NCBI GenBank assembly: GCA_964372905.1
Contig: CAYJQY010000001.1
Coordinates: 8,777 to 72,776, forward strand
Length of the DNA stretch: 64,000 nt
DNA from: an uncultured Candidatus Saccharibacteria bacterium
Lineage (GTDB): Bacteria; Patescibacteriota; Doudnabacteria; UBA920
Direction: 5' to 3'
Shown here: one piece after another, positions 1 to 40,309 of the stretch
Numbering within the stretch: the stretch's first letter is position 1
Layout: the number at the start of each line of letters is the position of its first letter
Notes under the pieces: generated by a model
Database searches by the model: none
What the model saw: the letters and a program-made list of their open reading frames with translations, nothing else
What the model was told of the DNA's origin: nothing
Position numbers and translations under genes: made by a program

Positions 1-478
1 GCGATTTGCCGAGCTTGTATTTTTGTGCATAAATTTTGCCGTCGCGGCGGACCAGCGCGGTCAAATCGCTGGACAGCGCGTTAACTACGGATACCCCGAC
101 GCCGTGCAGCCCGCCCGACACTTTGTAGCCCGAAGCTTCGCCCCCGAACTTGCCGCCCGCGTGCAAAACCGTCAAAACCGTTTCCAGCGCCGACTTCTTC
201 GTAGTCTTATGCACATCCACGGGAATGCCGCGGCCGTTATCGTGCACGGTCACTCCCCCATCCTGCTGCAGAATCACCTCAACGCGATTGGCAAAACCGG
301 CCATGGCCTCATCCACGGCATTGTCCACAACCTCCCACACCAAATGATGCAGTCCGGACTCCGAAGTCGAGCCAATGTACATGCCCGGCCGCTTGCGCAC
401 CGGCTCCAAGCCCTCTAGGACCGTGATTTGCTCGGCGGAGTATTGGGATTTCTTTTGCTTAAGGTATTTTTCGGGCAT
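1..478 (-). CDS. gyrB: DNA gyrase subunit B, N-terminal GHKL ATPase part (gene continues beyond window start)
   Basis: Reverse-complement translation from ATG at 476-478 gives [62 protein letters not shown]..., matching the classic GyrB N-terminal motifs ([18 protein letters not shown], LHHLVxEVVDN). The +strand ORF 23..418 is its antisense shadow. Confidence 0.85.
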
Positions 479-929
479 CGATTTTTTCTGCCAATTCAAG
501 CCCTAAATCATATTGACGATTATGAATAATATCAATCTCATCCGTAAGTGCCCTAATCTCATCTCGAATTTTCGTACTGGCTTCACTAAGTTTCCGCCCA
601 ATATCGAGCTCCGGGTGACTAGAACCTAAATTAACCCTGTTTAAATCATCGATCTGTCTATTTAAGCAAAGTATTAAATCTCTAGTAATGTTTTCTAGCT
701 CACTACTTATTCTCAATTCATCCGAAGCGGCATTTTCGTTTAAATGATCTCTTTGGAGCTCACTTGCCCGTGATTTTAAACCGGCAATTACGGACTTAAT
801 CCGATCTTCTTCTTTTTTTAAATCATCAAGAAATCTGGGCTTTCTCCATCCCAGCCAGTCAAATCCCTCCTCTGAAACTGGAGGTCCTAAATCTGGGGGT
901 TTTGGTAATGTATAGTCGCGTTTAGGCAT
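459..929 (-). CDS. hypothetical coiled-coil protein
   Basis: 156 aa ORF, charged and helical ([22 protein letters not shown]...). No recognisable motif. AT-rich relative to neighbours. Confidence 0.4.
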
Positions 930-1040
930 AGGCTTCAGCTAATTCCAGTACGCACTCCTTACTCTAATTTTATCACAATTTGGTTCATAATTCCAGTGAT
1001 TTCTATGTCGGCGAATGTACGATTGTTCACCATATTATTG

Positions 1041-2180
1041 CTAGCGAACCGTGGCCTTGAATTGGCTGGCCGTAAGCTCGTAAAGTTTATCTTGCAGCGG
1101 CTGGATTTCGGCCGTTTCCAGGGTGCGGTCGGTGCTGCGGTAGACAATGCGATAAGTGTAACTAACTTTGTCCGCGCCGAATTTTTCCGCATTTTTGTAT
1201 TTATCTAAGAGCTTAACTGCCTCCACCAAGTCGCCTCCCACATCGCGGATTAAATCAAAATAATTGTTGGGCACGAAATCGTGGTCAACCACAAAAGAAA
1301 TGTCGCGCGTTATCTGCGGATATTTGCTGACCGGCACAAACTTATTTCCCAAATGAAGCTGCTTTTTTACTCGCGGATCCTGCGACCACAGCAATCTAAT
1401 ATCCGGCAGTTCCATGCTCAAAATAGCCCAGCGCTCCAGGCCCGAACCGAATGCCCAGCCCGAGTAGGTATTTGGCTCAAGGCCGAGCTTTTCCAAAACC
1501 ACTGGCTGGACCATGCCGCTGCCCAAAATTTCCAGCCAGCGCCCGTCCTTGTTGATTTCCATCTCTAACGATGGCTCCGTATAGGGGAAGGTATCATGAT
1601 TAAAACGGACTTCAATTTTCGGACCATAAATCGTCTTGGCGATATCAGTGAGCGCACTTTTTAGATCTTCCAGGGTCAGCGCCGAGTCCTGATTTGAACG
1701 CAAGTACAGCCCATCAAACTGGTGGAAGATATTCATGTGATGACGATCAATCTCATCTTTGCGGTAAACTTTCCCCCAGCTAAAGACGGGCAGAGGCAAA
1801 TTTTGTTTAATTTTTTTTTGAATGGCCGGATGTTTGAAATAGTAGTACCACATAACAGTAGTATGCGTGCGCAAAATATTATTATCATCAACATAATAAG
1901 TATCGGACCTGCTGCGCGCGGGATGGTCAGGCGGGAAATTGAATAAATCGAAACTCAAGCTCGCTGACACGATTTCCGGGGCTTGAATAGTGTCAAAATC
2001 CTTGAATTGAGGGATGGACAAAATGCGCTCTACCATTTCCTGCAGCGGACTTCCCGGCGTGCGGGACAAATCGGGCATGTTTAAATAGCGTTTGATGCGT
2101 TCGCCTTCGGCGTCATGCCTGCTCTCTAGCTGTTTGCGCAACTGTTTTTCTTCGTCTGATTTGATAATAATATTTTCCAT
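1041..2180 (-). CDS. pheS: phenylalanyl-tRNA synthetase, monomeric mitochondrial-like form: class II PheS catalytic core fused to C-terminal FDX-ACB anticodon-binding domain
   Basis: PheS signature motifs FPPDHPARSRSDTYY, LRTHTT and GLERWAILSMELPDIRLL are present. The C-terminal ~95 aa (ITRDISFVVDHDFVPNNYFDLIRDVGGDLVEAVKLLDKY...YRIVYRSTDRTL) closely resembles the FDX-ACB domain of human FARS2 / bacterial PheT C-terminus. The N-terminal coiled-coil of bacterial PheS is absent. Confidence 0.85.
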   Translation of the reverse strand: MENIIIKSDEEKQLRKQLESRHDAEGERIKRYLNMPDLSRTPGSPLQEMVERILSIPQFKDFDTIQAPEIVSASLSFDLFNFPPDHPARSRSDTYYVDDNNILRTHTTVMWYYYFKHPAIQKKIKQNLPLPVFSWGKVYRKDEIDRHHMNIFHQFDGLYLRSNQDSALTLEDLKSALTDIAKTIYGPKIEVRFNHDTFPYTEPSLEMEINKDGRWLEILGSGMVQPVVLEKLGLEPNTYSGWAFGSGLERWAILSMELPDIRLLWSQDPRVKKQLHLGNKFVPVSKYPQITRDISFVVDHDFVPNNYFDLIRDVGGDLVEAVKLLDKYKNAEKFGADKVSYTYRIVYRSTDRTLETAEIQPLQDKLYELTASQFKATVR

Positions 2181-2200
2181 GTAAGGTTTTCGAGAATTGG

Positions 2201-2563
2201 CTAGTATAAAATTTTACCAGGAGCTTCGGTCTTAGGCAAGACCATAATTCCCTCTCCCGGCTCATCGCTTAAGCCTAATTCAAAGCCCGCGCAAATCATA
2301 CCATTGCTTTCCACACCCCGAATTTTGGCTTTGTCCAAAGTAAAACTTTCGTGTTCCGGAGTGTGAATATTGTGTTTGATTTCCGCTCCGGGCAAAGCCA
2401 GCGCCACCATAGCGCCTACCTCAAAATTAAACGCGCCGCAAACCACGGGACCAAATTCCTGGCCATCGGTAGCGGCGCTTCCCACATCCAAATAAACTAC
2501 GCGGAGGCGGTCGGCATTAGGGTGTGGTTCAATTCTTAAAACCTTGGCGGCTATAATGCTCAT
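2201..2563 (-). CDS. standalone tRNA-binding (Myf/EMAP-fold) domain protein, CsaA/Trbp111/PheT-B1-like
   Basis: 120 aa with the tRNA_bind pattern (AKVLRIEPHPNADRLRVVYLDVG...VVCGAFNFEVGAMVALALPGAEI...KIRGVESNGMICAGFELGL...GIMVLP). Confidence 0.7.
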   Translation of the reverse strand: MSIIAAKVLRIEPHPNADRLRVVYLDVGSAATDGQEFGPVVCGAFNFEVGAMVALALPGAEIKHNIHTPEHESFTLDKAKIRGVESNGMICAGFELGLSDEPGEGIMVLPKTEAPGKILY

Positions 2564-2577
2564 CTATACATTGATTG

Positions 2578-2658
2578 CCGACCCGTATTGCCCAGCAAGT
2601 AGCATTTGCTACCTGCCGACATGTGAGCAACTCTGCTGCTTGCGGGCACCGGCGAGGC
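2578..2658 (-). repeat. intergenic hairpin repeat element, copy A (orientation opposite to copies C-F)
   Basis: Reverse complement reads gcctcgccggtgcccgcaagcagcagagttgctcacatgtcggcaggtagcaaatgctacttgctgggcaa..., alignable with copies at 38796, 41503, 56108 and 61367. Lies between two minus-strand genes. Confidence 0.8.
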
Positions 2659-2666
2659 CATTAAAT

Positions 2667-4169
2667 TTAGTAATTCTGGCACAGCTCCTGGGTGCATTGG
2701 TATCCGGTCTGGCCCGGCGGCGGATTTTCCAGAATGGTCTTAAGTGCAAAAGAGTCAAATTGATCGGAGACCGTGTAAACATAATCCTTGCCGGTAATCG
2801 GATCTGTGGGAATGCTGCTCAAATACGCCGGCGACAACTCGGTCTTATAGTTTTCCACGGGCGGAAACACATAATTTATGGTGGCGTTAACCGGCCGATG
2901 GGCCTCGGAATAAATCAGCAAGGCCGACTTTATGCTTTCAAGATCACGCACCCGCTGGTCATCATTCAAATTAGCCGTTTCCCGCGAAGCGCTTTTCTCG
3001 GCATCAGGCGCGGTAAATTTAATAAGCTGGTTCTGGCTTTCGCTGTAATAAGTAATAGTAAAGTCGAGCGCGGTCTGCGATACTAAATAGCCGTAGACTA
3101 GAGGCGAGAGGTTGACCGGATCGACGGGATTGGTGGCCACGGTCAGGTAGGGCCTTATTTCATTGACCATACTTAAAAAGTCCGGTGATTTGGGAAAAGT
3201 GGGGCGCTCTTTTTTATATTTGATGAGCGCCGCGCCGACTTTGCGGATGGTAGTGAGCCGTTGGGTGTCGCGGTCGAGTACGGCCTGGGGCGAGCGGTCA
3301 AAAGACGAGGGCAGATTTATGCTCGTTCCCCCGGGCGCTCCGCCGCCTTCCACAAAATCGTAGCGGATCAAATTATTCTCCCCAAGCGTGCCAATAGTGG
3401 GTTGGCGCAGCCCAGATTGCTTGACTTTTAATTTAACCTGGGCCAACCGCTCATCAGAATATTTGGTGTTATTGCTGGGATCATAGCCGCCGGCGGCATT
3501 GTCCGCATCGTCGTAGTCCGGATTGCCTGCCGTTCGTTGGTTTAAGGGACTGCCGCCAAAGACGTGGACCTCATCGCCGTCAGCCAGACCATCGCCGTCA
3601 CTGTCAGGATTATTGGGGTCGGTACCATAAGTATATTCCTCAATGTTGGTGAGGCCGTCCTGGTCAGGATCAGCCGCATCGCCGCAGGCGGCCACGTTCT
3701 GACAGGTTTCATTATTGAAAAAGCGGAGCTGCCAATCTGACGGCGTGGTAACGCCCTCAATTTGGGTTGTCGGCGGGGGGGCTTCCTCAACCGGCGGGGT
3801 TTCAGCGGGAGCGGCGGGTTCGTTAACAGGTTCAGTTTGGGTACGGCCGCGGTACAGCATGTACCCGACTACGCCCAGCACAATTAATACTATTACCGCG
3901 ATGCCGGCAATAATGGCTCGCCGCGGCAACGCAGACCTAGCCGCGGCCATAGACGCATCAGCATCTGATAGTTCAAAATTTGGCTCCGCACTGACCTGGG
4001 TTGGGCCTGCGCCTCCGTCTGCGGCGCCGGAAGCGTCAGAGCTGCTTACCAGCGGCCCGGTTGCCCGCTGTTTGGGCAGAAAATTATAGAAAATGTTTTG
4101 GGGCTCGCCCCCGGCCGACGCAGGCGATATAGAACCCGATGGTAACGCAGAAGCCGAATTTTCATCCAT
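2667..4169 (-). CDS. membrane-anchored protein with thrombospondin-type-3-like calcium-binding repeats
   Basis: Single predicted TM helix (IIAGIAVIVLIVLGVVGYMLY). Pro-rich linker. DxDxDG repeats (DPDQDGLTNIEEY, DSDGDGLADGDE). The C-terminal region has a faint pilin-like flavour. Function unknown. Confidence 0.5.
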   Translation of the reverse strand: MDENSASALPSGSISPASAGGEPQNIFYNFLPKQRATGPLVSSSDASGAADGGAGPTQVSAEPNFELSDADASMAAARSALPRRAIIAGIAVIVLIVLGVVGYMLYRGRTQTEPVNEPAAPAETPPVEEAPPPTTQIEGVTTPSDWQLRFFNNETCQNVAACGDAADPDQDGLTNIEEYTYGTDPNNPDSDGDGLADGDEVHVFGGSPLNQRTAGNPDYDDADNAAGGYDPSNNTKYSDERLAQVKLKVKQSGLRQPTIGTLGENNLIRYDFVEGGGAPGGTSINLPSSFDRSPQAVLDRDTQRLTTIRKVGAALIKYKKERPTFPKSPDFLSMVNEIRPYLTVATNPVDPVNLSPLVYGYLVSQTALDFTITYYSESQNQLIKFTAPDAEKSASRETANLNDDQRVRDLESIKSALLIYSEAHRPVNATINYVFPPVENYKTELSPAYLSSIPTDPITGKDYVYTVSDQFDSFALKTILENPPPGQTGYQCTQELCQNY

Positions 4170-4203
4170 AAATTATTTCTTGATTTTTATTATAGGATTT
4201 TTA

Positions 4204-4572
4204 TTACAGGTTAAGGAAAATTTCAGTGGTGATTAAAAACAATATAAGCAAGACCTCAACCCACCAAAATAGCAACCCCGCAGCACTCAACCCCAACGAC
4301 GCAGTCACAAAAATGGCTAAGAACAGAGCTTGGCGAAAACTGGCGGCGAGGTGGAGCACGTAGAGCCCGGGCCGCAGTCGCTGGCGCACCGTAATTCCGA
4401 TTAAACTAAAAAGCCCGAGCGTAAACAAAAATGTGCTTAAATAAAACAGTAAATGTGTGATCCAGCCGGCGCTGTCCGGGTTTGTAAAGCTAATAATCGA
4501 TCCCAGGGAAAATCCCGAAAGAATCGTGCCCGCGCCAATCAGCCAAAGATGGGTTTTAACCGTTTCCGGCAT
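4204..4572 (-). CDS. small hydrophobic membrane protein (hypothetical)
   Basis: 122 aa, 3-4 predicted TM helices, no motif. Confidence 0.4.
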   Translation of the reverse strand: MPETVKTHLWLIGAGTILSGFSLGSIISFTNPDSAGWITHLLFYLSTFLFTLGLFSLIGITVRQRLRPGLYVLHLAASFRQALFLAIFVTASLGLSAAGLLFWWVEVLLILFLITTEIFLNL

Positions 4573-4599
4573 TTAGAGTTTTGAACTCAATAAATTATA

Positions 4600-7524
4600 T
4601 CACATTATGAGATAATTTGCCATTTGGCACGCGTGCTGTTTGGCTTTGGTATGGCGCTCGGCGAATAAATCGTACTTAATGGTGTGGCGTATGTCTTCAA
4701 TCCTTTCGAGTATGGCTTGCTTTAGTTTTCCGATTTGCCCGTTTGTTGCCGGCTGTTTTATGCTTCTTTGGTTATCCTGCAGGTACCAATATTGGAGTTC
4801 CTTGACGGTTTCGTGGAGATAATTTTGTGCAGCCCATTGGTAAACTTCAAGCTGGTCAAGCGAAGTGCGAACTTTGGATTTTGTTGAGCTGGAAGTTTTG
4901 TAATCGATAAGCACTGCCTCCCCATCTGTTTCATCAATGCGATCAATCTTGCCGGTAAATTTGTAGTCGCCGAGCGGCAGAACAAATTTCTGCTCTATGA
5001 ATTTTATGTTGGGTTTATTGCCTTCAAAATCAGCATAGACCAATTTCAGCATTTCCTGACCCAGCTTTTTATACCCCTGCTGTTCTTTTTTAGAATGATA
5101 CCAGTCATCGATCCAGTACTGCTGGTAAAATTGTTCCATCATTTTATATTCAGGAAGAGTTGAGGCGGCCTTGGCGCCAAACAGGGCTTGCTGCGGGGCT
5201 TGCGCATTATTTTTGTAGAGCAGGGCAAATTGCTGCAGGACTTTGTGGATGGTTTTGCCAAAACTCAAGGCCGGCGTTCCCGGCATAGGCAGATGCAGGT
5301 AGTAACGAAATTTATAATCGAGCGGGCAGGTTTCAAAAGCGGCCAGCTCGGTAAAAGAATAGGTGGTTGGTAAATTTTGATAAACTATTTGTTTTGATGA
5401 TCCCGCCGGCCGGGTAAATACGACTTTGCCGGTTGCCGTGGCCACCTTCTCGCTGGGCACAAGGTTGGTTTCCACTAAAAACTGGGAAGGTTTTTTAGCT
5501 TTGCCGCCGCCGTAGTCGCGCGCCCAGGATAAATATAGATGGGTCTTAGCGCGGGTCAGCGCCACGTAAAACAAGCGCCGCTCTTCTTGAAGATGAAAAT
5601 CGCCGGCCGGCAAAATATCTTTGATGAGCGCTTCAGGGATTTCTATGGGGTCGCGATGGGTGCGCGTAGGAAAGCGCTGGTCCACCAAATTGACGAGAAA
5701 AACAAACTTAAATTCCAGGCCCTTGGCCGAGTGCACGGTCATGAGCTTGAGACTTTCCGGGCCGAGTTCGGGATCAAATTTAATCGGTCCGTCGCTGCCG
5801 GCCTGCATCTCCAGGTCCAGGTTGACCAGAAAATTGCGCAGGGTTTTATCGTCATTTTGCTCTTCGAACGTCTCAATTTTTTTGTAAAATTGCTCCAGGT
5901 ATTCGCGGTTTTCCGCGTTTTGCAAAGTGTCGGGTTCCAGAAGTTCGCGCACGCCCAGGTCCTCTACAACGGTGACGAACAATTCGACCGCGGTTTGCGT
6001 TTTGGCTAGTTCCGCGTGCTTGCTTATTAAACCCAGCAGAAGTTCAGTTCTGATAATTGCGGCTTCGGAAATTCCCGGAACAGTGCGAATACCTATAAGC
6101 GCTTCGTAAAGCGACACTGCTTTCTTATGGGCAAAATCGCTTATGGCCGCCATCTTATTAGGATCAATAGCAAATTTAGGAAAGCTAAACAAGCGATAAA
6201 AAGTAGCCGAGTCGTGGCGGCTAATGAGCAGTTTGCAGTAGCTGATGAGGTCATGAATCAGGCGTTTGCGATAAAGTCCGCGGTTGGCCATAAAGGTCAA
6301 GGTTATTCCCGCAGCTTCCAGGCGCGGGATAATTTCGTTGGCCGCGGCGTTGGCCCGAACCAGAACGGCAAAGTCGTTCCAGTTGCTGTCTTTGTATGCC
6401 TGCTTTAATTCCAGAATTTTCTTGACTACCAGGTCCAGTTCCTCGCTTAAATCGCGGCCTTCAAGAACCTGAATCGCGCCTTTTTCGTTGCTACCGCTTA
6501 CCAAATGTTTATCAATTTTTAATTTGGGCTCAAGCCGGTCCGGGTTGTTGGCCTGGATAAAGTTATAAGCCAGGTCAAGAATGTTTTGCGCGCTGCGATA
6601 ATTTTTGACCAAAGTAATTTCTTTTACGCCGGAAAATTCGTCCTTAAATTTTAAGATGTTGGAAACCGAAGCCCCGCGGAATTTATAAATAGATTGGTCA
6701 TCGTCCCCTACGACCACTACATTTGACGAGTCGGACAGCAGTTTTATCAGTCGGTACTGGGCATAATTTGTGTCCTGGAATTCATCGACCAGGATAAACT
6801 TGAATTTTTTTTGATAATATTTCAGAACATTGGGTCGTTTTTGAAAAAGTTCCAGAGTATAATTGATCAGATCGCCAAAGTCGAGATTGGCGTTGTCCAG
6901 GAGCAATTTGTTATAAGTGTGGTAAGCGTCTGCGATTTCCTTGATCCGCTGGATCTCCATAACTTGCTCCGGATCAGATCCTTTTACTACATCCGGATTA
7001 TCTAACTCTAATTTTATCTGCTCTGCGTAATTGAAATAATCTTCGGGCTTGATAATTTCGTCCTTGCACTTGCTAAAATGATCAAGCAGCGCGTCTATGA
7101 ACCGGTTTGGGTTACCCAGCGGCCGGTAATAGTTTAGATTAAAGTTGTCAAAATTTTTATAAACTAGAATCCATTGCTGGACCCCATCAAGCAGCTGAAA
7201 ATTATTGGGTAGGCCGATATCAAGACCGTGCTGCTCTAAAACGCGCTGACAGAAACTGTGGAAAGTGGAAATCCACAGGTCATAGTTTCCCAGCGGCAGG
7301 AGTTGGTCTACGCGCGACTCCATTTCCTCGGCCGCTTTTTCGGTAAAGGTCAGGGCAAGGATTTCGTCGGGTTTAGCCAGTTTTTGTTCCACCAGGTAGG
7401 CAATCCGGCGGGTTATCACGGTGGTCTTGCCCGTGCCGGCGCCGGCAACAATGAGCAATGCCCCGCCAGTATGGGTTACGGCGGCCTGTTGCTCGGAGTT
7501 AAGATTTTCCAAAAGCGTCGGCAT
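4600..7524 (-). CDS. UvrD/PcrA-family ATP-dependent DNA helicase fused to C-terminal PD-(D/E)xK (RecB/AddB-like) nuclease domain
   Basis: Walker A AGAGTGKTT. Helicase motifs DEFQDT, VGDDDQSIYKFRGA, VKNYRS and TVHSAKGLEF. C-terminal GKIDRIDETDGEAVLIDYKTS (D...D/E-x-K) plus Cys residues (CPLDY). Confidence 0.85.
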   Translation of the reverse strand: MPTLLENLNSEQQAAVTHTGGALLIVAGAGTGKTTVITRRIAYLVEQKLAKPDEILALTFTEKAAEEMESRVDQLLPLGNYDLWISTFHSFCQRVLEQHGLDIGLPNNFQLLDGVQQWILVYKNFDNFNLNYYRPLGNPNRFIDALLDHFSKCKDEIIKPEDYFNYAEQIKLELDNPDVVKGSDPEQVMEIQRIKEIADAYHTYNKLLLDNANLDFGDLINYTLELFQKRPNVLKYYQKKFKFILVDEFQDTNYAQYRLIKLLSDSSNVVVVGDDDQSIYKFRGASVSNILKFKDEFSGVKEITLVKNYRSAQNILDLAYNFIQANNPDRLEPKLKIDKHLVSGSNEKGAIQVLEGRDLSEELDLVVKKILELKQAYKDSNWNDFAVLVRANAAANEIIPRLEAAGITLTFMANRGLYRKRLIHDLISYCKLLISRHDSATFYRLFSFPKFAIDPNKMAAISDFAHKKAVSLYEALIGIRTVPGISEAAIIRTELLLGLISKHAELAKTQTAVELFVTVVEDLGVRELLEPDTLQNAENREYLEQFYKKIETFEEQNDDKTLRNFLVNLDLEMQAGSDGPIKFDPELGPESLKLMTVHSAKGLEFKFVFLVNLVDQRFPTRTHRDPIEIPEALIKDILPAGDFHLQEERRLFYVALTRAKTHLYLSWARDYGGGKAKKPSQFLVETNLVPSEKVATATGKVVFTRPAGSSKQIVYQNLPTTYSFTELAAFETCPLDYKFRYYLHLPMPGTPALSFGKTIHKVLQQFALLYKNNAQAPQQALFGAKAASTLPEYKMMEQFYQQYWIDDWYHSKKEQQGYKKLGQEMLKLVYADFEGNKPNIKFIEQKFVLPLGDYKFTGKIDRIDETDGEAVLIDYKTSSSTKSKVRTSLDQLEVYQWAAQNYLHETVKELQYWYLQDNQRSIKQPATNGQIGKLKQAILERIEDIRHTIKYDLFAERHTKAKQHACQMANYLIM

Positions 7525-7856
7525 ATATATAGATCATTATAGCCCATATCAAAAAAGCCGCCATGTGAAAGCGGTAAATGTATTATTTCGGGCTTGCGCG
7601 CTTGCCGCGCAAGTTCGATTATTGTGCTGTTTTATTTTTCGAAGATAAATTTGGTCGCAGTGGACCAAAGGTAGTTTTTATCGTTTTCGCTGTAACGTAT
7701 CCAAAACGACTTTCATTGAAGTTTATATTGCCCTCATGGGTTATTCTCCCCCATTTGATTTGTAAGTCCAAGGGCAATCATTTCTTTATCGAATAGTTTT
7801 GGACTCTCGACCAAGGCTGTACTAGACATATTTGCTCCTTTTCTATTTTAATGAAA

Positions 7857-8375
7857 TTAATGATTTGATTTTTTAATCGGCATCAGAAATTTGCGCGGGT
7901 TATCGTCCAAATCTATAAAAAAGTCGGTCAGCTCTTTAATTTTGCCGCTGCAGGATTTGCCGAAAGCAATGGTTTCAGTCATCTGCCCGGTCATTTGCAG
8001 GTATTCCAAAAGTGGCACAAAATCGCCGTCGCCGCTGGCCAGCACAACTACATCAAGTTTGTGCATAAGCTTGATAATGTCCATGGCAATGCCCACATCC
8101 CAGTCCCCTTTTTGGTGTCCGCCGGCAAAAGTTTGCAGTTCTTTGCGTTTGACTTCAAAGCCGGCCTTTTCCAGCGCCTCGAAAAAAGTATGCTCTTCGG
8201 GCATATCGGCCTGGACCACATAGGCAATGGCGCGTACGAGTTTGCGGTCGCCCACGGCGGCTTTCAAGATTTCATTAAAATTCACTCGGGCCTGGTACAT
8301 GTTCCGGGCCGAGTAGTAGAGATTTTGCACATCCACGAACAGACCGACGCGCTGGTCAGGGTAGCGGATAGACAT
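7857..8375 (-). CDS. NYN-domain (LabA-like/PIN-like) protein
   Basis: VGLFVDVQNLYYSA...VVVLASGDGDF pattern typical of NYN/LabA (DUF88) nucleases. Confidence 0.7.
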   Translation of the reverse strand: MSIRYPDQRVGLFVDVQNLYYSARNMYQARVNFNEILKAAVGDRKLVRAIAYVVQADMPEEHTFFEALEKAGFEVKRKELQTFAGGHQKGDWDVGIAMDIIKLMHKLDVVVLASGDGDFVPLLEYLQMTGQMTETIAFGKSCSGKIKELTDFFIDLDDNPRKFLMPIKKSNH

Positions 8376-20619: not shown

Positions 20620-22347
20620 TTAATTTCTCAAGGGCAGCGCGTTTGACGCGTCCAGCGGAAATTGCCGTTGCTGCTTAATCATTTCGTTCAGATCGATGAA
20701 ATCTGTCGGAGCTTCAACGGTAACCTGATTACCGTAATCAGAATAATCAATATCAAACTTGAGCTCGGCCGAGAAATCGACCTGGTCAAACGCACGGCCC
20801 TGCGCTTGCTCCCGGGGCGCGGGCAGAAGACAATTGGGTGAATTCGCCGGGCAGGGCTGGGCGGTGGAAATACCGGAAGGCGTAAGGATACCCAGACCCG
20901 CCTTATATTCGCCCACATTATCACCCAAGCAAAAAATAAGCTGATAATTGGGGTAAACTCTTGCGCCGTTTCTGCCCGTCGTTGAGCCCCCAACCGGAGT
21001 ATAAGTATAAGTATTTGCGGCTTCAGTGCACAAGCCGCTTGGCGGTGGGGCTACGGGTAAGAGGGCCAGGTAGGCCGGCTTGTCTTTGGGTGTATTAGAA
21101 AGGTCAGATAAATTCTGCGGGTAGCCGCCAGTATCGTTATAATATAATTCCGAGGCGCCGGCAATTTGCCTGACGTGGGCCAAGCGCTGGGAGTCATCTG
21201 ATCCCGGATTAAAACGCAGGCCAGCCATGGACAATTTTAGGAGCGAAATCAGCGAGGGCGCGTTGCCGACAAAATGAATGCGGTACGGCCGCTGGTCGAG
21301 AATGCCCACCCAGACTTCAAACTCCCTGGTCTCCAGGCGGCTTAAGAGTTGGGTTGTTGCGCTTGTTATAGCGCTCAACAAGTCATTGGAAAAATTTTGG
21401 GAGTCAGTTTCGCTCAACAAGGCTGCGGTATCCTTCAGGGCGCGCTCAATATTTGGCCGATCCAAAGCCAGCCTGAAATGAAATGTCTGCGTGTTGTTTA
21501 CGCGCTCAATGCCGAGATATTTATCAAGCTTAATGATTTGATGACGGAGCCAGATGTCATTAATTTTTTCGCGGAGCGCTTCAGCATCCAATATTTGCAT
21601 CAAAGCGGAAGTTTGTCCCCCCCCTGGCTCCCTAACTAACTGGTGGAAATTCATTTTAGCCCAATCTTTTTTTGTTTCGCGGGCCTGTAAATAGAATAAA
21701 TTGAGCAGAATGTTATCCTTGGTATTCAAATAAATATCCTGGTCAATCTGGCGGTATTTTAAAGCCGTGCCGAAATTGCTTCCCCCGCCGCTTATGTTGT
21801 AGTTAATCTCGCCCTGGCTTGCGGAATGGCCGGATTCAATGGCGCGAAACTCCCCTGTGCCGGAAATTTCGAATGCCAAATTGCTTAAGGCCAGGCCCAG
21901 GTCAGAAGGGAGTTCAGCGGTGCCCCCGTCAGTATAGCTCATTACAAACTTGGTGTGATGTGATTTGCTTGATGCTTCATTAATAAAGCGATTAAACACG
22001 CGGGCGGGCGCATATACTGCGGCCAGAACCCCCGCGCCTACAACAATTACTCCCATACCTGTCCCGACTAACATGAGCCATCTTTTTGATTTTTTGCCGT
22101 GCGGGGGTTGTGGCAGCAAGGTTGGCTCCTGACGGGCTCCCGTTTCCGAAATGCTAACACTAGCCACAGGCGCCGCGGGCGGGCTGGCGGCTGCCTTGGC
22201 AAGCTGCTGTTCTGAATCAACCTCGGCAAATCCGTTGTCCACGGCTCGCGCGTTCCAACCCACGGTTAAAAGATTGCGGCGAATTTCCTCGTCATTGTGC
22301 CCATAGGAACGGGCTTCGCGGATATAGGCAACTATGTCTTCGTCCAT
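20620..22347 (-). CDS. membrane-anchored hypothetical protein with internal type IV pilin/pseudopilin-like domain
   Basis: TM helix near residues 90-115. Motif LAHVRQIAGASELYYNDTGGYPQNLSDL resembles the pilin globular-domain pattern (xxYYxDNGxYP). Cys-rich C-terminal part. Confidence 0.45.
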   Translation of the reverse strand: MDEDIVAYIREARSYGHNDEEIRRNLLTVGWNARAVDNGFAEVDSEQQLAKAAASPPAAPVASVSISETGARQEPTLLPQPPHGKKSKRWLMLVGTGMGVIVVGAGVLAAVYAPARVFNRFINEASSKSHHTKFVMSYTDGGTAELPSDLGLALSNLAFEISGTGEFRAIESGHSASQGEINYNISGGGSNFGTALKYRQIDQDIYLNTKDNILLNLFYLQARETKKDWAKMNFHQLVREPGGGQTSALMQILDAEALREKINDIWLRHQIIKLDKYLGIERVNNTQTFHFRLALDRPNIERALKDTAALLSETDSQNFSNDLLSAITSATTQLLSRLETREFEVWVGILDQRPYRIHFVGNAPSLISLLKLSMAGLRFNPGSDDSQRLAHVRQIAGASELYYNDTGGYPQNLSDLSNTPKDKPAYLALLPVAPPPSGLCTEAANTYTYTPVGGSTTGRNGARVYPNYQLIFCLGDNVGEYKAGLGILTPSGISTAQPCPANSPNCLLPAPREQAQGRAFDQVDFSAELKFDIDYSDYGNQVTVEAPTDFIDLNEMIKQQRQFPLDASNALPLRN

Positions 22348-36852: not shown

Positions 36853-38721
36853 CTAAAATTTATAGACTTCGCCGGGTTTAATAACCGTAGCTTGTTGTGG
36901 AGTGGCTGATTCGGCGGCTTTAGGGCTGGGAATTGTGGGCGGTGAGGGAGCAGGCGGAGAAACTGGAGCCGGGGTTTGGGCCGGGGTTCGGTCGGAAGAC
37001 GCAGCCGTTGCCGGCGGAACGGATTTTGGGGGCTGACTTTTTTGCTGCTCCAATTGTCTGACCGTGTTCCACACAGGATGCTCTATTTTTCTTGGCTTAT
37101 CTTGCTGCTGTCTTGGTTTCTGACGTTTGCCGCGCTTGCCGTCGAAGCGCGGGTTGGGAGTCGGGCGGTCCATAACTGGTCTGCGCTCCGCAGGTCGCTC
37201 AAAAACAGATTGAGTACGTTTAATTGGCGCCGGAGGTGAAGGTACTTGGCGCGCCGGTTCCTTAACAGCTGGCGCAGGACTTGCCTCTAATTCAACTTCT
37301 GTTTCCCGAACTGCGGCCTGCTGAACTTGCGGCTGCTGTGCCGGCGCCAGCGGCGTTTGGGCTGCCTCAATTTGCTCCGCTTGATCCTGCCCGACCACCA
37401 AGGCAGTCTGTTCATGAAATTCCGCGCCCATCCAGCGGGAAATTTTTCCTTCCACCTCGGCCGCCGGATTGGCGTAGCGCTCCCGCGAAACTTTAATAAT
37501 CTTCTCCGCGTTGCCGGTACGCCAGGCCTCGTTGGGCGGCAAAGTCACGGCTGAAAAGGGGTCGCTGGCAATGCCGTTTATCATCAATTTTAAGATAATA
37601 TTATATTTCGGCAAGTTAACAAGGTCGGTCATGGTAAAAATCGGGCCGACTTCCTTTTCCAAAACCTCGGCGTCTTCCGCGCCGACGCGAAACGATACTA
37701 TGGTGCCTACGTTGCCGAACACCGCGTCGCGAACTTTAGTATTGCCCCGCTCTGGCACCAGTTGGCCGATATACTGATGGCCTATGACTAAATTAAGATG
37801 ATACTTGCGCGCCTCGCTCAAAATAGTAGCGAAACTGTCAGTGACAAAATTTTGGAATTCGTCGACATAGAGGTAAAAATCCTGACGATCTTCCTCGCGG
37901 GGAATGTCGACCCGGGATAGCGCGGCCAACTGCAGCTTGGTAACTAGCATTGAACCAAGCAATTCGGAGTTATCTTCCCCAACCCGGCCCTTAGACAAGT
38001 CCACCAACAAAATCTTTTTTTCGTCCATAATTTCCCGCAAATCAATCGTGGAGCGGGTCTGACCGACAATATTGCGGATAATAGCCGAGGACAAAAACTG
38101 CCCGACCTTGTTCTGAATCGGCGCTATGGCTTCGGTGCGGTACTTTTCGTTATAGTTGGCAAACTCATCAGTCCAAAAAGCCCGGACCATGGGGTCCTTA
38201 ATGTTGTCGACAATTTTTTTGCGGTATTTTTTATCGATATACATGCGGGCAATCCCCAACATAGTATTGCCGGGGCTGTCGAGCAAAGCCAGAATCGTGT
38301 TATTCAAAATGTACTCCATACGGGCCGACCACAGGTTTGCCCAAATTTTCGTAAACACGCCCATCAAGCCCGAAGCCACTAAGTGCTTATACTTTGGATC
38401 CACGGCTTCCAGGATGTTGAAGGCAATAGGGTGTTCCAGATCGGCCGGATTGAAATAAATCACGTCGTTGATCCTGTGGTTCGGGATAAAGCTCATTATT
38501 TTGGTAATGGAGTCTCCATGCGGGTCGATAAAGCACACGCCATGCCCATTATAGATGTCCTGGATAACCATGTTTTCCATCATGGTGGTTTTGCCCATGC
38601 CAGTCTTACCGATAACATAAAGGTGCCGGCGGCGGTCATCGGCTTTAATGCCAAAGGGCACCTCTTTGTTGCGGAAGTTGGTTTTAGCAAAAAATGTGAT
38701 TTGTTTATTGAGTTCGGTCAT
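36853..38721 (-). CDS. VirD4/TraG/TraD-like type IV coupling protein ATPase with long Pro/Gln-rich C-terminal tail
   Basis: Walker A IGKTGMGKTT followed by a DPHGD motif (cf. DPKGE of TraG/VirD4). Later Walker B/aspartate box motifs (LLVDL, VDEFQNF). About 200 aa low-complexity P/Q/A tail. Confidence 0.6.
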   Translation of the reverse strand: MTELNKQITFFAKTNFRNKEVPFGIKADDRRRHLYVIGKTGMGKTTMMENMVIQDIYNGHGVCFIDPHGDSITKIMSFIPNHRINDVIYFNPADLEHPIAFNILEAVDPKYKHLVASGLMGVFTKIWANLWSARMEYILNNTILALLDSPGNTMLGIARMYIDKKYRKKIVDNIKDPMVRAFWTDEFANYNEKYRTEAIAPIQNKVGQFLSSAIIRNIVGQTRSTIDLREIMDEKKILLVDLSKGRVGEDNSELLGSMLVTKLQLAALSRVDIPREEDRQDFYLYVDEFQNFVTDSFATILSEARKYHLNLVIGHQYIGQLVPERGNTKVRDAVFGNVGTIVSFRVGAEDAEVLEKEVGPIFTMTDLVNLPKYNIILKLMINGIASDPFSAVTLPPNEAWRTGNAEKIIKVSRERYANPAAEVEGKISRWMGAEFHEQTALVVGQDQAEQIEAAQTPLAPAQQPQVQQAAVRETEVELEASPAPAVKEPARQVPSPPAPIKRTQSVFERPAERRPVMDRPTPNPRFDGKRGKRQKPRQQQDKPRKIEHPVWNTVRQLEQQKSQPPKSVPPATAASSDRTPAQTPAPVSPPAPSPPTIPSPKAAESATPQQATVIKPGEVYKF

Positions 38722-38929: not shown

Positions 38930-40309
38930 CTAACCTACGGGCAAATTCACGGGGGCTTGCGACTTCTTGCTCTCAATGGCTTCAACTGGCGCCGCGGTTG
39001 GTTTCTCGGCTTCGGACAATGGGAAGTGATAAATGGTGGCCAGCTCCTCTATGTTCATAACGCTCGCCGGCAGGCCAATCCACACACTGCGGTCTTTGTA
39101 GGCGTTAAATAGCCAGCGCTTGCGCCGGCGCACCTCCCAGTCAATATACGGCTTTTCCAAAGTCGGCGAAAGCAGATAATTTAATTTTGTCCAAGTGTGC
39201 TTAAGATCTGGCTTAAAACCGTTTAACTGCTGCGACTTAAACGGCCTAAGCGCGCCAATGACGCCCGAGCGCTTGTTCAAGTCCAACTGGTTTTTCGGAG
39301 CAATGTAGAGGTTGCGGATCTTGGTTTTGTAGCCGGGCTTGCTGAGCTTGCGCTGAATGGCATTGACCCGTTCCTTTTCCACGTCCGTCATTCTCATCCA
39401 GTTGTTTTTTTCCTTCTGCATGTTTTCGGCTAAGGCACGAGCGTTGCCGCTAAGCAGTGCAGTCCAGCGGAAATTGGCCACAAGCTCGAACGGAGCCAAA
39501 AACAGCCTTTTAAAACTAAAGTCATAAGGCATTTCTTCTCCGATTAGTTCTTTAACCAACCTCTCACCCTTATTTTTCCATTCATTATCGTCCAACGGCT
39601 GAATTAAAATTTGAACGCCGTAAAATTCGTCCGGCTCAACCTGCGCCAGCGCTTCAAACAAGCCGGCCAAAGGATCAATAATTTTCTTTTCGGCTGCCGG
39701 ATGTTCAAATTCCTTATAAGTCTTTATCGGGATAGCCTGATTTTCCAGAACCTTGTATTCAAAGCCAAACAGGTCAAAATCGCCGGTTTCGGGATCGTAA
39801 GTAACGTTTTTGAGGTAATCCTCTACCTCGGTAATTTCCGCCGCAGGGAACTGGGCATAAATGGCTGATTCCACGGTGACGCGCTGCTTTTTGGGAATTC
39901 GCATAATGAAAGAAATTTTTCCCCCCAGACTGACAATTTCCAGCGAATACCACAACTGGATTTTCCCCTCGATATATTTTTCGGCAAAGGTAAAATTCAG
40001 ATGGAGTTGGTGTAACTGGGAAAAAATCTGTTCCACTCCCAGGAGGCTGTGCTCGTTTTCCTTGGGAACCTTGATATGCAAGAAGGTCCAGTTCTGGCTC
40101 AAGCGGAATTGCAGCTGGATTTCTTCCTTATAATGATACCAAAACATGTAAACTACAGCCCAAACAATGGCGATCCAGCCGCCATGGACGGTGAGATACC
40201 ACAAATCGGCCAGGGTTTTACCGAAATCTAAAAAGATACTTTGCAACGAAGCCATACTGTTTGTTTTTTTAGGAGCCTTGCGCCGCGAGGGCGTAAAGAT
40301 TCCGGCCAA
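38930..40309 (-). CDS. hypothetical membrane protein (1 TM) transcribed immediately upstream of the VirD4-like gene
   Basis: 459 aa; TM helix LWYLTVHGGWIAIVWAVVYMFWY; no motif recognised. Confidence 0.4.
   Translation of the reverse strand: MAGIFTPSRRKAPKKTNSMASLQSIFLDFGKTLADLWYLTVHGGWIAIVWAVVYMFWYHYKEEIQLQFRLSQNWTFLHIKVPKENEHSLLGVEQIFSQLHQLHLNFTFAEKYIEGKIQLWYSLEIVSLGGKISFIMRIPKKQRVTVESAIYAQFPAAEITEVEDYLKNVTYDPETGDFDLFGFEYKVLENQAIPIKTYKEFEHPAAEKKIIDPLAGLFEALAQVEPDEFYGVQILIQPLDDNEWKNKGERLVKELIGEEMPYDFSFKRLFLAPFELVANFRWTALLSGNARALAENMQKEKNNWMRMTDVEKERVNAIQRKLSKPGYKTKIRNLYIAPKNQLDLNKRSGVIGALRPFKSQQLNGFKPDLKHTWTKLNYLLSPTLEKPYIDWEVRRRKRWLFNAYKDRSVWIGLPASVMNIEELATIYHFPLSEAEKPTAAPVEAIESKKSQAPVNLPVG

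What the first reader, a model, noticed from the sequence alone, without database searches (positions are those of the whole stretch)
1041..2563. Mitochondrial-type monomeric PheRS (PheS core + FDX-ACB) with no pheT; only a standalone PheT-B1-like tRNA-binding domain upstream
Canonical bacterial PheRS is (alpha-beta)2, with pheT immediately downstream of pheS; PheT carries the B3/4 editing domain and the C-terminal FDX-ACB anticodon-binding domain.

Here the 379-aa PheS lacks the N-terminal coiled-coil that contacts beta. Its C-terminal ~95 aa strikingly match the FDX-ACB domain of human mitochondrial FARS2 (DISF...DFYDLIRDVGGDLVE.V.L.DKY...YRIVYRS.DRTL).

No pheT follows; gyrB and a coiled-coil ORF do. 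Immediately upstream, co-transcribed, is a 120-aa standalone tRNA_bind (Myf) domain corresponding to PheT domain B1.

This implies an editing-deficient, FARS2-like monomeric PheRS in a bacterium, with the B1 domain possibly supplied in trans. It is relevant to the origin of the mitochondrial enzyme and to translational fidelity in reduced genomes.
Basis: partly seen in the sequence, partly recalled or inferred. Interest (0 to 1): 0.65.

Follow-up and report, generated by a model that had tools for sequence, protein, structure and literature searches.

The report
Single-chain PheRS that displaced pheS/pheT
This candidate-phyla-radiation bacterium makes its phenylalanine-tRNA synthetase as one mitochondrial-style chain, and a close relative with the same gene order still carries the normal two-subunit genes, which indicates that the classical enzyme was replaced on the spot and only a small tRNA-binding piece of the old beta subunit was kept.

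Summary
Window 1041-2180 (-) encodes a 379-aa PheS catalytic core fused to a C-terminal FDX-ACB anticodon-binding domain. Window 2201-2563 (-) encodes a 120-aa standalone tRNA_bind protein 20 nt upstream. This domain is B2 of PheT, not B1.

- **Resemblance to FARS2:** sequence, profile scores and an AlphaFold model (pLDDT 91, TM 0.78 to 3CMQ) match human mitochondrial PheRS.
- **Family size:** more than 7000 homologs with the same architecture occur in Patescibacteria (Doudnabacteria, Paceibacteria, and a code-25 lineage).
- **Decisive locus:** L053, from a close relative, has the same gene order. It carries a canonical pheS and a full-length pheT exactly where the window has nothing and B2 + fused PheRS.
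- **Origin of the parts:** the window's B2 is 63% identical to that PheT's B2, which is an orthologue-level match. The fused core and FDX-ACB are only 31% and 28% identical to the resident PheS and PheT. In split tests both fall on the mitochondrial-type side.
- **Reading:** an old single-chain PheRS lineage displaced pheS/pheT in place. The B2 remnant is under purifying selection.

Genome-wide absence of pheT, the monomeric state, the loss of editing and any B2 action in trans are inferred, not shown. I found no published description of this in the searched literature.

The parts
1041..2180 (-). Single-chain (mitochondrial-type) phenylalanyl-tRNA synthetase, 379 aa
   Evidence: Pfam finds tRNA-synt_2d + FDX-ACB. 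The best PDB match by sequence is human mtPheRS (202 bits), against 144 bits for bacterial PheS-alpha. The AF2 model has pLDDT 91 and TMq 0.78 to 3CMQ. More than 7000 homologs share the architecture.
1359..2051 (-). Class IIc catalytic core (aa 44-274) with motifs 1-3
   Evidence: Pfam PF01409 scores 202 bits. Identity to E. coli PheS aa 108-326 is 36%. Across 22 homologs the following are invariant: HPAR (H86, P87, R89), motif 2 GKVYRKDEIDR.HMN.FHQ.DG (136-157), FPYT..S.E (198-206) and motif 3 GWAFG.G.ER (241-250).
1044..1328 (-). C-terminal FDX-ACB anticodon-binding domain (aa 285-379), equivalent to PheT domain B8
   Evidence: Pfam PF03147 scores 78 bits. Against FARS2: 42% identity, 77 bits. 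Against E. coli PheT B8: 29%, 40 bits. Against the B8 of the syntenic relative's PheT: 28%, 40 bits. The split between fused-type FDX and PheT B8 has 75% bootstrap support.
2201..2563 (-). Standalone B2 (tRNA_bind, OB-fold) protein, 120 aa: conserved remnant of pheT
   Evidence: Pfam tRNA_bind scores 49.7 bits and pheT_bact positions 46-147 score 93.7 bits. It is 63% identical to aa 47-153 of the full-length PheT at the syntenic position in L053. The AF2 model has pLDDT 91.7, and the best fold match is PheT B2 (4p71_A, TMq 0.80). Median aa identity across genomes is 0.68, against 0.65 for the PheRS. dN/dS is about 0.1-0.17.
2181..2200 (-). 20-nt spacer between the B2 stop codon and the PheRS start codon
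   Evidence: Read directly from the sequence. No terminator-like site lies between the two genes. No Rfam element occurs in 1-8000.
4170..4203 (.). 34-nt intergenic gap at the position where the syntenic relative carries canonical pheS
   Evidence: L053 order: UvrD-like, 123 aa, PheS (343 aa), 504 aa, PheT, gyrB. Window order: UvrD-like (4600-7524), 122 aa (4204-4572), 500 aa (2667-4169), B2, fused PheRS, gyrB.
2667..4169 (-). 500-aa TSP3-repeat protein, used as an upstream synteny anchor
   Evidence: 41% identical to the 504-aa ORF that separates pheS and pheT in L053. It is conserved upstream of B2 in the related loci.
1..478 (-). gyrB 5' part (cut by the window edge), used as a downstream synteny anchor
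   Evidence: The translation has the GyrB N-terminus. L003 shows the full 688-aa gene. gyrB follows pheT in L053 and lies next to the fused PheRS in nearly all 38 GTDB loci.
459..929 (-). 156-aa ORF between PheRS and gyrB, specific to this organism
   Evidence: No Pfam or NCBIfam family. It is found only in L001-L003, which come from the same organism.

Best explanation
The 379-aa protein is the housekeeping phenylalanyl-tRNA synthetase of a Doudnabacteria-related CPR bacterium.

**How it is built and works.** It is built like mitochondrial PheRS. One chain carries the alpha-type class II catalytic core and its own ferredoxin-fold anticodon-binding domain. It therefore needs no beta subunit. 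By analogy with FARS2, it would work as a monomer in which the anticodon-binding domain swings from a closed to an open state to hold tRNAPhe. It has no B3/B4 editing domain, so it cannot clear Tyr-tRNAPhe in cis.

**How it arose.** In this lineage a gene of an old single-chain PheRS family displaced the resident canonical genes at their own locus. Canonical pheS was lost. All of pheT was lost except the part that encodes the B2 OB-fold. That part survives as a separate, selectively maintained gene directly upstream.

**Role of B2.** B2 most likely acts as a tRNA-binding helper in trans.

**Shown:** the architecture, the family affinity of both domains, the syntenic replacement, and the conservation of B2.

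**Inferred:** monomeric activity, absence of any pheT elsewhere in the genome, loss of editing, and B2's role.
For: **Architecture and fold.**

**Catalytic motifs.** All are invariant in 22 homologs.

**Family size and spread.** 7037 homologs were found, and the top 120 all carry both domains. The gene is present in 38 GTDB species of Yanofsky-, Taylor-, Colwell-, Nomura-, Zambryskii- and Doudnabacteria. A code-25 CPR lineage also has it.

**Nearest relatives.** In the exhaustive search, the next relatives outside CPR are other fused proteins, including yeast Msf1 and fern, Trichoplax and Vitrella organellar PheRS. They rank ahead of canonical PheS.

**Split tests on each domain.**
- Core only: canonical PheS (including the CPR one from L053) separates from fused proteins with 100% bootstrap support.
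- FDX-ACB: PheT B8 (30 CPR PheTs, L053, E. coli) separates from fused proteins with 75% support.

**Syntenic relative L053.** Flanking genes are 52-86% identical (UvrD-like 52%, 504 aa 41%, gyrB 76%, NusG 86%, L11 73%). L053 carries canonical PheS and a full PheT (tRNA_bind, B3_4, B5, CLM, FDX-ACB) at the corresponding sites. The window's B2 is 63% identical to that PheT's B2. The fused core and FDX-ACB are only 31% and 28% identical to the resident proteins.

**Conserved gene order.** The order with B2 + fused PheRS appears in 12 further loci. Every standalone B2 locus with downstream DNA is followed by the fused gene, 6 of 6.

**No trace of the editing region.** No B3_4/B5 signal appears in about 0.65 Mb around 38 homologs.

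**No shared contig.** No contig length is shared between the lists of PheT-bearing and fused-PheRS-bearing contigs.

**B2 is constrained.** Its conservation matches that of the PheRS.
Against: - The rest of this genome could not be searched, so a second pheS/pheT copy is not excluded.
- Some MAGs labelled Doudnabacteria do carry full PheT.
- The window protein falls below every curated NCBIfam cut-off: pheS_mito 234 vs 258, SrmL 241 vs 300, pheS 181 vs 237.
- The trees are neighbour-joining, unrooted and use a limited canonical sample. Raw core distances to canonical PheS and to eukaryotic fused forms are similar.
- An AF2 single-chain model says nothing about oligomeric state.
- B2 is absent from the 10-kb flanks in Paceibacteria-type loci, so it is not required by the fused enzyme in general.
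- There are no biochemical data.
Confidence: 0.78

Rival explanations
1. The fused protein is an accessory paralog, like NCBI's 'PheS-related mystery ligase SrmL'. Under this reading the genome keeps a canonical pheS/pheT pair elsewhere for housekeeping.
For: - The best NCBIfam hit by E-value is SrmL (241 bits), although that is below its cut-off of 300.
- Fused or PheS-like paralogs sit in non-translational contexts in ordinary bacteria (P0243 in Oligoflexia, P0246).
- Full PheTs exist in some Doudnabacteria MAGs.
- The genome outside the window was not searched.
Against: - The ancestral pheS and pheT sites are empty or reduced to B2 in this lineage.
- The gene sits among housekeeping genes (gyrB, nusG, rplK).
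- All PheRS catalytic and Phe-pocket motifs are invariant.
- The CPR cluster representative passes the pheS_mito cut-off (264 vs 258).
- No tested relative reaches the SrmL cut-off.
- No contig is shared between the PheT and fused-PheRS lists.
Confidence: 0.08
2. The gene is a recent in-place fusion. The resident pheS core recombined into the resident pheT and replaced B3-B7. This would leave B2 upstream and the resident B8 fused downstream. No foreign or old lineage would be involved.
For: The layout B2, core, FDX-ACB at the pheT locus next to gyrB mirrors the domain order of PheT (B2 ... B8).
Against: - B2 is 63% identical to the relative's PheT, but the FDX-ACB is only 28% and the core only 31% identical to the resident proteins. 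That is less than the core's identity to E. coli PheS (36%).
- In split tests both domains fall with the mitochondrial-type fused proteins and not with CPR PheS/PheT.
- The same fused gene lies next to gyrB in distant Paceibacteria without B2.
Confidence: 0.08
3. A rearranged multi-subunit enzyme. A residual beta core (B1, B3/4, B5, B6/7) would be encoded elsewhere and assemble with PheS-B8 and B2, so editing would be retained.
For: - The genome outside the window was not searched.
- Mukai 2017 notes CPR PheRS-beta proteins that lack B2.
- B2 is retained under selection.
Against: - The alpha N-terminal domain is absent.
- The whole chain superposes on monomeric FARS2 in its closed form.
- No B3_4/B5 signal appears in 0.65 Mb of related flanks.
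- The PheTs nearest to this lineage all carry all five domains, including B2 and FDX-ACB.
Confidence: 0.05
4. An assembly or gene-calling artefact, such as a chimeric contig or a frameshifted pheS-pheT.
For: None found.
Against: - An identical protein occurs on three independent Logan assemblies and one NCBI contig.
- Thousands of full-length homologs exist.
- Gene order is conserved in 12 loci.
Confidence: 0.01

Closest known systems
Mitochondrial/organellar PheRS (human FARS2, yeast Msf1; TIGR00469 pheS_mito; PDB 3CMQ, 3TUP)
   Same: - One chain carries the alpha-type catalytic core and a C-terminal FDX-ACB domain.
- It has no alpha N-terminal coiled coil and no editing domain.
- It is the best sequence and fold match (202 bits; TMq 0.78 to the closed form).
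- It shares GWAFG in motif 3. The FDX-ACB is 42% identical.
- It falls on the same side of the core and FDX splits.
   Different: - This protein is bacterial and presumably cytosolic.
- It is shorter (379 aa) and lacks the FARS2 insertion at about aa 176-203, so the alignment breaks into two stretches.
- Overall identity is about 32%.
- It scores below the TIGR00469 cut-off (234 vs 258).
- It is accompanied by a separate B2 protein.
- It forms its own CPR clade, with an Oligoflexia protein and a code-25 CPR protein as nearest neighbours.
Canonical bacterial (alpha-beta)2 PheRS (PheS TIGR00468 / PheT TIGR00472)
   Same: - The catalytic core is homologous (36% to E. coli PheS).
- The FDX-ACB corresponds to B8 of PheT and the standalone protein to B2.
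- The gene occupies the ancestral pheT locus.
   Different: - It lacks B1, B3/4 (editing), B5, B6/7 and the alpha coiled coil.
- B8 is on the catalytic chain.
- It scores below both curated cut-offs.
- The syntenic relative L053 shows the canonical state.
NCBIfam NF051887 'PheS-related mystery ligase SrmL'
   Same: The profile aligns over nearly its full length (positions 14-345 of 349), covering both the core and the C-terminal domain.
   Different: The score of 241 is below the cut-off of 300. None of 16 related representatives reaches it. The window protein keeps all PheRS motifs and sits at the pheT locus.
Standalone tRNA_bind proteins (Trbp111, YtpR, CsaA; EMAPII/Arc1p C-domains)
   Same: B2 is a small OB-fold tRNA-binding protein that can act on tRNA in trans (established knowledge for Trbp111 and Arc1p). 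Structural matches have TMq 0.6-0.8.
   Different: By sequence and fold it is closest to the B2 domain of PheT (38% to P. aeruginosa PheT). It scores below the YtpR cut-off (70 vs 100). It is demonstrably derived from the resident pheT.
aaRS genes of huge phages
   Same: Single-chain PheRS homologs lie on 160-340 kb phage-like contigs. One is also present in the 635-kb phage record LR745206.1.
   Different: Those proteins are 348-354 aa and about 34-35% identical. In the neighbour-joining trees they fall on the side that also holds the eukaryotic organellar sequences. The window itself is cellular, with ATP synthase, SecA and the mur operon.

Membership tests
Single-chain (mitochondrial-type) PheRS | Alpha-type class IIc catalytic core with motifs 1-3 | tested here: met
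   PF01409 scores 202 bits. The motifs are invariant.
Single-chain (mitochondrial-type) PheRS | FDX-ACB anticodon-binding domain on the same chain, C-terminal to the core | tested here: met
   PF03147 scores 78 bits at aa 285-379. The domain is 42% identical to that of FARS2.
Single-chain (mitochondrial-type) PheRS | No alpha N-terminal coiled-coil domain and no B3/B4 editing domain | tested here: met
   There is no PF02912 or PF03483 hit. The alignment to E. coli PheS starts at aa 108.
Single-chain (mitochondrial-type) PheRS | Whole-chain fold of FARS2 | tested here: met
   The AF2 model has pLDDT 91. Against 3CMQ: TMq 0.78, E 5e-33. Against bacterial alpha chains: TMq 0.55 or less.
Single-chain (mitochondrial-type) PheRS | Curated cut-off of TIGR00469 (pheS_mito) | tested here: not met
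   The window protein scores 234.4 against a cut-off of 258.35. The representative of its 50% cluster, P0241, passes at 264.3.
Single-chain (mitochondrial-type) PheRS | Groups with organellar PheRS rather than with canonical PheS/PheT, tested domain by domain | tested here: met
   The core split has 100% and the FDX split 75% bootstrap support, with CPR canonical PheS and PheT included. The trees are unrooted neighbour-joining trees.
Single-chain (mitochondrial-type) PheRS | Active as a monomer without a beta subunit | not testable with these tools
   Indirect evidence only: the pheS and pheT sites are vacated in synteny.
Canonical bacterial PheS (alpha subunit) | TIGR00468 cut-off, N-terminal domain, pheT partner | tested here: not met
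   The score is 181 against a cut-off of 237. There is no PF02912 hit. No pheT lies in the window or in related flanks.
NF051887 SrmL (PheS-related mystery ligase) | Curated cut-off of 300 bits | tested here: not met
   The score is 241 bits.
PheT (beta subunit), for the 120-aa ORF | Full domain set B1-B8 and the TIGR00472 cut-off | tested here: not met
   Only positions 46-147 match, at 93.7 against a cut-off of 402. This is a B2-only remnant.
tRNA_bind (PF01588) OB-fold domain, for the 120-aa ORF | Pfam gathering score and OB fold | tested here: met
   The score is 49.7 against 27. The AF2 model matches PheT B2 with TMq 0.80.
YtpR family tRNA-binding protein, for the 120-aa ORF | NF045760 cut-off of 100 | tested here: not met
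   The score is 69.9.

The most novel reading that the evidence does not exclude
The single-chain 'mitochondrial' PheRS is an old bacterial invention rather than a eukaryotic fusion. It would be housekeeping in large parts of the CPR, would sit at the former pheT locus next to gyrB, and might be spread by huge phages. Eukaryotes would have acquired it for their organelles. In Doudnabacteria-type lineages the retained B2 fragment of PheT would work with it as a two-protein enzyme. Whole bacterial classes would then translate Phe codons without PheRS editing.
Probability: 0.3. Interest if true: 0.8.

Novelty: new variant of a known kind. Interest (0 to 1): 0.68.

Why it matters
Textbook accounts give bacteria an (alpha-beta)2 PheRS and reserve the monomer for organelles. 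This locus challenges that in four ways.

- **Scale.** Thousands of CPR bacteria appear to rely on the single-chain type. Natural 'before' and 'after' versions of the same chromosomal locus are available for comparison.
- **Origin of mitochondrial PheRS.** The origin of this enzyme, which is not alphaproteobacterial in any obvious way (established knowledge), becomes testable with rooted phylogenies.
- **Life without editing.** These lineages offer a natural test of whether bacteria can live without PheRS editing.
- **A role for B2.** B2 is dispensable for aminoacylation in E. coli, according to the title of Roy & Ibba 2006 as cited in PMC5370408. Here it appears to have a function worth keeping on its own.

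There is also a practical consequence. NCBI names these proteins 'hypothetical', and JGI names the B2 fragment 'beta chain'. Marker-gene and KEGG-based surveys of CPR genomes would therefore be misled.

Tried and rejected
**Literature.** The terms combined monomeric/PheRS/CPR, Patescibacteria, Parcubacteria, PheRS-M, FDX-ACB, SrmL, and 'beta' with CPR. I also read AARS Online, Douglas 2023, Meheust 2019, Mukai 2017 and 2022, and Kantor 2013. None describes a bacterial single-chain PheRS. Only Mukai 2017 was useful, for the B2 nomenclature and for CPR PheRS-beta proteins that lack B2. Subscription journals were not searchable.

**SrmL membership.** Rejected on the curated cut-off.

**Obtaining a CPR PheT from the top canonical PheS representatives.** This failed because those representatives were eukaryotic.

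**Searching the rest of the genome.** The look-up of the exact protein returned only three short Logan contigs. The 141-kb NCBI contig was not retrievable. Genome-wide absence of pheT therefore stays untested.

**Promoter and terminator scan.** It gave no more sites than shuffled sequence.

**Rfam.** Nothing was found in 1-8000, including no T-box leader.

**dS estimates.** They are saturated for most pairs, so only the bound dN << dS and the comparison of identities are used.

**First neighbour-joining bootstrap rerun.** It timed out and was redone with a faster implementation.
Full report
**What is in the sequence.**

On the minus strand, window 1041-2180 encodes a 379-aa protein. Pfam finds the PheRS class II core (tRNA-synt_2d, aa 44-274, 202 bits) and a C-terminal ferredoxin-fold anticodon-binding domain (FDX-ACB, aa 285-379, 78 bits).

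The protein aligns to E. coli PheS only from residue 108 to the last residue (36% identity). It therefore lacks the alpha N-terminal domain. Its extra C-terminus aligns to the B8 end of E. coli PheT (29%).

Twenty nucleotides upstream, 2201-2563 encodes a 120-aa tRNA_bind protein. It matches positions 46-147 of the bacterial PheT profile.

Downstream come a 156-aa ORF and gyrB. No other large ORF of the window is a PheT.

One correction concerns nomenclature. The OB-fold tRNA_bind domain of PheT is B2, not B1 (PMC5370408). Its best solved-structure matches are PheT residues 45-140.

**What the protein resembles.**

- **By sequence,** the best solved relatives are human mitochondrial PheRS entries (202 bits). 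Bacterial alpha subunits score 144 bits or less, and beta subunits match only the tail.
- **By fold,** an AlphaFold model built on 22 homologs (pLDDT 91, pTM 0.87) superposes over its whole length on the closed form of human mtPheRS (3CMQ, TMq 0.78). Bacterial alpha chains cover only the core (TMq 0.55 or less).
- **By conservation,** all residues of motifs 1-3 and the FPYTEPS Phe-pocket segment are invariant across the family.
- **By curated models,** the protein misses every cut-off: pheS_mito 234 vs 258, SrmL 241 vs 300, pheS 181 vs 237. The representative of its 50% cluster passes pheS_mito.

**How widespread it is.**

The word-indexed search found 7037 homologs. The best 120 all have both domains and are 64-81% identical. 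Their names include Doudnabacteria, Paceibacterota and Yanofskybacteria. NCBI calls them 'hypothetical protein' and JGI calls them 'PheRS alpha chain'.

A scan of GTDB species genomes found the gene in 38 Patescibacteria species.

The exhaustive search of 50%-identity representatives collapsed this CPR group to one full-length representative. The next relatives were these:

- a 414-aa Oligoflexia protein;
- a 456-aa protein whose gene has 13 in-frame UGA codons at conserved glycine columns, which indicates a code-25 CPR lineage;
- organellar PheRS of yeast, fern, Trichoplax and Vitrella;
- 348-354-aa proteins on phage-like contigs of 160-340 kb.

Canonical PheS proteins rank lower.

**The decisive comparison.**

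A metagenome scan with the B2 alignment returned two kinds of locus.

The first kind carries a standalone B2 gene (57-69% identity). Wherever downstream DNA exists, the fused PheRS follows directly (6 of 6).

The second kind is a single locus, L053, from 0.1-um-filtered groundwater. Its B2 match is just as close (63%) but lies inside a 795-aa PheT with all five Pfam domains.

L053 is collinear with the window:

| Position | L053 | Window | Identity |
|---|---|---|---|
| 1 | UvrD/PDDEXK helicase | 4600-7524 | 52% |
| 2 | 123-aa protein | 4204-4572 | 32% |
| 3 | canonical PheS, 343 aa, with N-terminal domain | 34-nt gap, no gene | n/a |
| 4 | 504-aa protein | 2667-4169 | 41% |
| 5 | full PheT, 795 aa | B2 (120 aa) + fused PheRS (379 aa) | B2 63%; FDX-ACB vs B8 28% |
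| 6 | gyrB | gyrB | 76% |
| 7 | YdjM | YdjM | 39% |
| 8 | NusG | NusG | 86% |
| 9 | L11 | L11 | 73% |

(Identities. In the window a 156-aa ORF, found only in this organism, lies between the fused PheRS and gyrB.)

The window has nothing between the 122-aa and 500-aa genes. It has B2 plus the fused PheRS where L053 has pheT.

The window-type order recurs in 12 other loci: L004, L006, L007, L009, L010, L011, L013, L041, L052, L054, L055 and L057.

B2 therefore diverged from the relative's PheT about as much as the flanking genes did. The fused core is only 31% identical to the relative's PheS, which is less than its identity to E. coli PheS. The FDX-ACB is only 28% identical to the relative's B8.

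**Split tests.**

On the core alone, canonical PheS sequences separate from all fused proteins in 100% of bootstraps. The canonical set comprised E. coli, P. aeruginosa, S. haemolyticus, six database representatives and the CPR protein of L053.

On the FDX-ACB alone, 32 PheT B8 domains (30 of them from CPR PheTs) separate from 67 fused domains in 75% of bootstraps.

These are unrooted neighbour-joining trees. They show which side of each split the window protein lies on. They do not show the direction of evolution.

**Reading.**

The fused gene belongs to an old single-chain lineage. It replaced the resident pheS and pheT in place. It is not a recent fusion of the local genes.

The fused gene lies next to gyrB in nearly all 38 GTDB loci, including distant Paceibacteria that have no B2 nearby. 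A plausible route is therefore import of a fused-PheRS-gyrB segment. One crossover would fall in gyrB and the other inside pheT just after B2, followed by loss of the now useless pheS. This route is inference.

**The B2 protein.**

B2 is not a decaying relic.

- Across the same genome pairs its median amino-acid identity (0.68) equals that of the PheRS (0.65).
- dN/dS is about 0.1-0.17 where dS is not saturated.
- Many positions are invariant.
- The other roughly 640 codons of pheT have vanished without trace.

Its predicted fold is the PheT B2 OB-fold. The best-supported guess is a trans-acting tRNA-binding helper for the single-chain enzyme. It is not universal to the family, since Paceibacteria-type loci lack it within 10 kb.

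**What remains open.**

- I could not search the rest of this genome.
- Full PheTs do occur in some MAGs labelled Doudnabacteria, Saccharibacteria, Kerfeldbacteria and Parcubacteria. The CPR is therefore mixed.
- Among the listed hits, no contig carries both a PheT and a fused PheRS or standalone B2. The lists are truncated, so this is weak evidence.
- The monomeric state, the lack of editing and B2's role need experiments.
- Ten literature searches and six papers gave no description of a bacterial single-chain PheRS. Subscription journals were not covered.

**Verdict.**

It is a new variant of a known kind. The known kind is the mitochondrial-type PheRS. The variant is that enzyme serving as a bacterial housekeeping enzyme, with a retained B2 fragment.

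Noticed in passing
L044:10001-11047 (341-kb contig), L045:10001-11065 (160-kb contig); GenBank LR745206.1 613869-614858: Single-chain PheRS homologs (348-354 aa, core + FDX-ACB) sit in phage-like contigs. Their neighbours are dense small hypothetical ORFs together with PhageMetallopep, PcfJ, SNF2, Thy1 and dCMP deaminase. A 635-kb 'uncultured phage' record also holds a homolog covering 92% of the query. Huge phages may carry and spread this one-gene PheRS.
   Followed up: partly
L048:9463-10833: The 456-aa fused PheRS P0248 is encoded with 13 in-frame UGA codons that align with conserved glycines. This indicates genetic code 25, as in Gracilibacteria/Absconditabacteria. The database translated these codons as Trp (code 4).
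   Followed up: yes
window 1041-2563; There is an annotation pitfall. NCBI names the fused PheRS proteins 'hypothetical protein'. JGI names the 116-173-aa B2 proteins 'phenylalanyl-tRNA synthetase beta chain'. KO-based or marker-based surveys would then score these genomes as having a normal PheS/PheT pair, or as missing PheRS.
   Followed up: partly
L004-L041 (38 GTDB loci): The fused PheRS gene lies next to gyrB in nearly all loci. It is co-directional in Doudnabacteria-type and some Paceibacteria loci and divergent in most Paceibacteria-type loci. In the canonical relative L053, pheT precedes gyrB.
   Followed up: partly
window 1-64000: All 37 ORFs of at least 200 aa are on the minus strand, so the whole 64-kb window is co-directional.
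   Followed up: no
window 459-929: A 156-aa ORF with no family match lies between PheRS and gyrB and overlaps the gyrB start by 20 nt. It is found only in contigs of this same organism (L001-L003) and in none of the related loci.
   Followed up: partly
L047:10001-11197 (P0246); L043:10001-11245 (P0243): Non-CPR bacteria carry PheS-like paralogs in non-translational contexts. P0246 has a PheS core and a 127-aa C-terminal domain with no Pfam hit. P0243, from an Oligoflexia MAG, is a full core + FDX-ACB protein annotated as hypothetical. Both score below the SrmL cut-off.
   Followed up: partly
P0299 (872 aa), P0338 (761 aa), P0298 (704 aa): Three representatives have unusual architectures. P0299 has an AlaRS core + PheRS core + FDX-ACB. 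P0338 is a fused PheRS with a C-terminal methyltransferase. P0298 is a fused PheRS with a 366-aa N-terminal extension that has no Pfam hit. Their origin is unknown, and they may be eukaryotic gene-model artefacts.
   Followed up: no
window 20620-22347 and 38930-40309: Two large ORFs (575 aa and 459 aa) have no Pfam family. Nearby, 36853-38721 is a TrwB/VirD4-like coupling ATPase and 40269-41363 combines sigma-70 region 4 with a HARE-HTH domain.
   Followed up: no
alignment A2 (B2 family): Most standalone B2 proteins have an extra N-terminal segment of about 15-30 aa with a conserved L..LF-like motif. The window protein and a few others (P0122, P0124, P0155) lack it. Its meaning is unknown.
   Followed up: no
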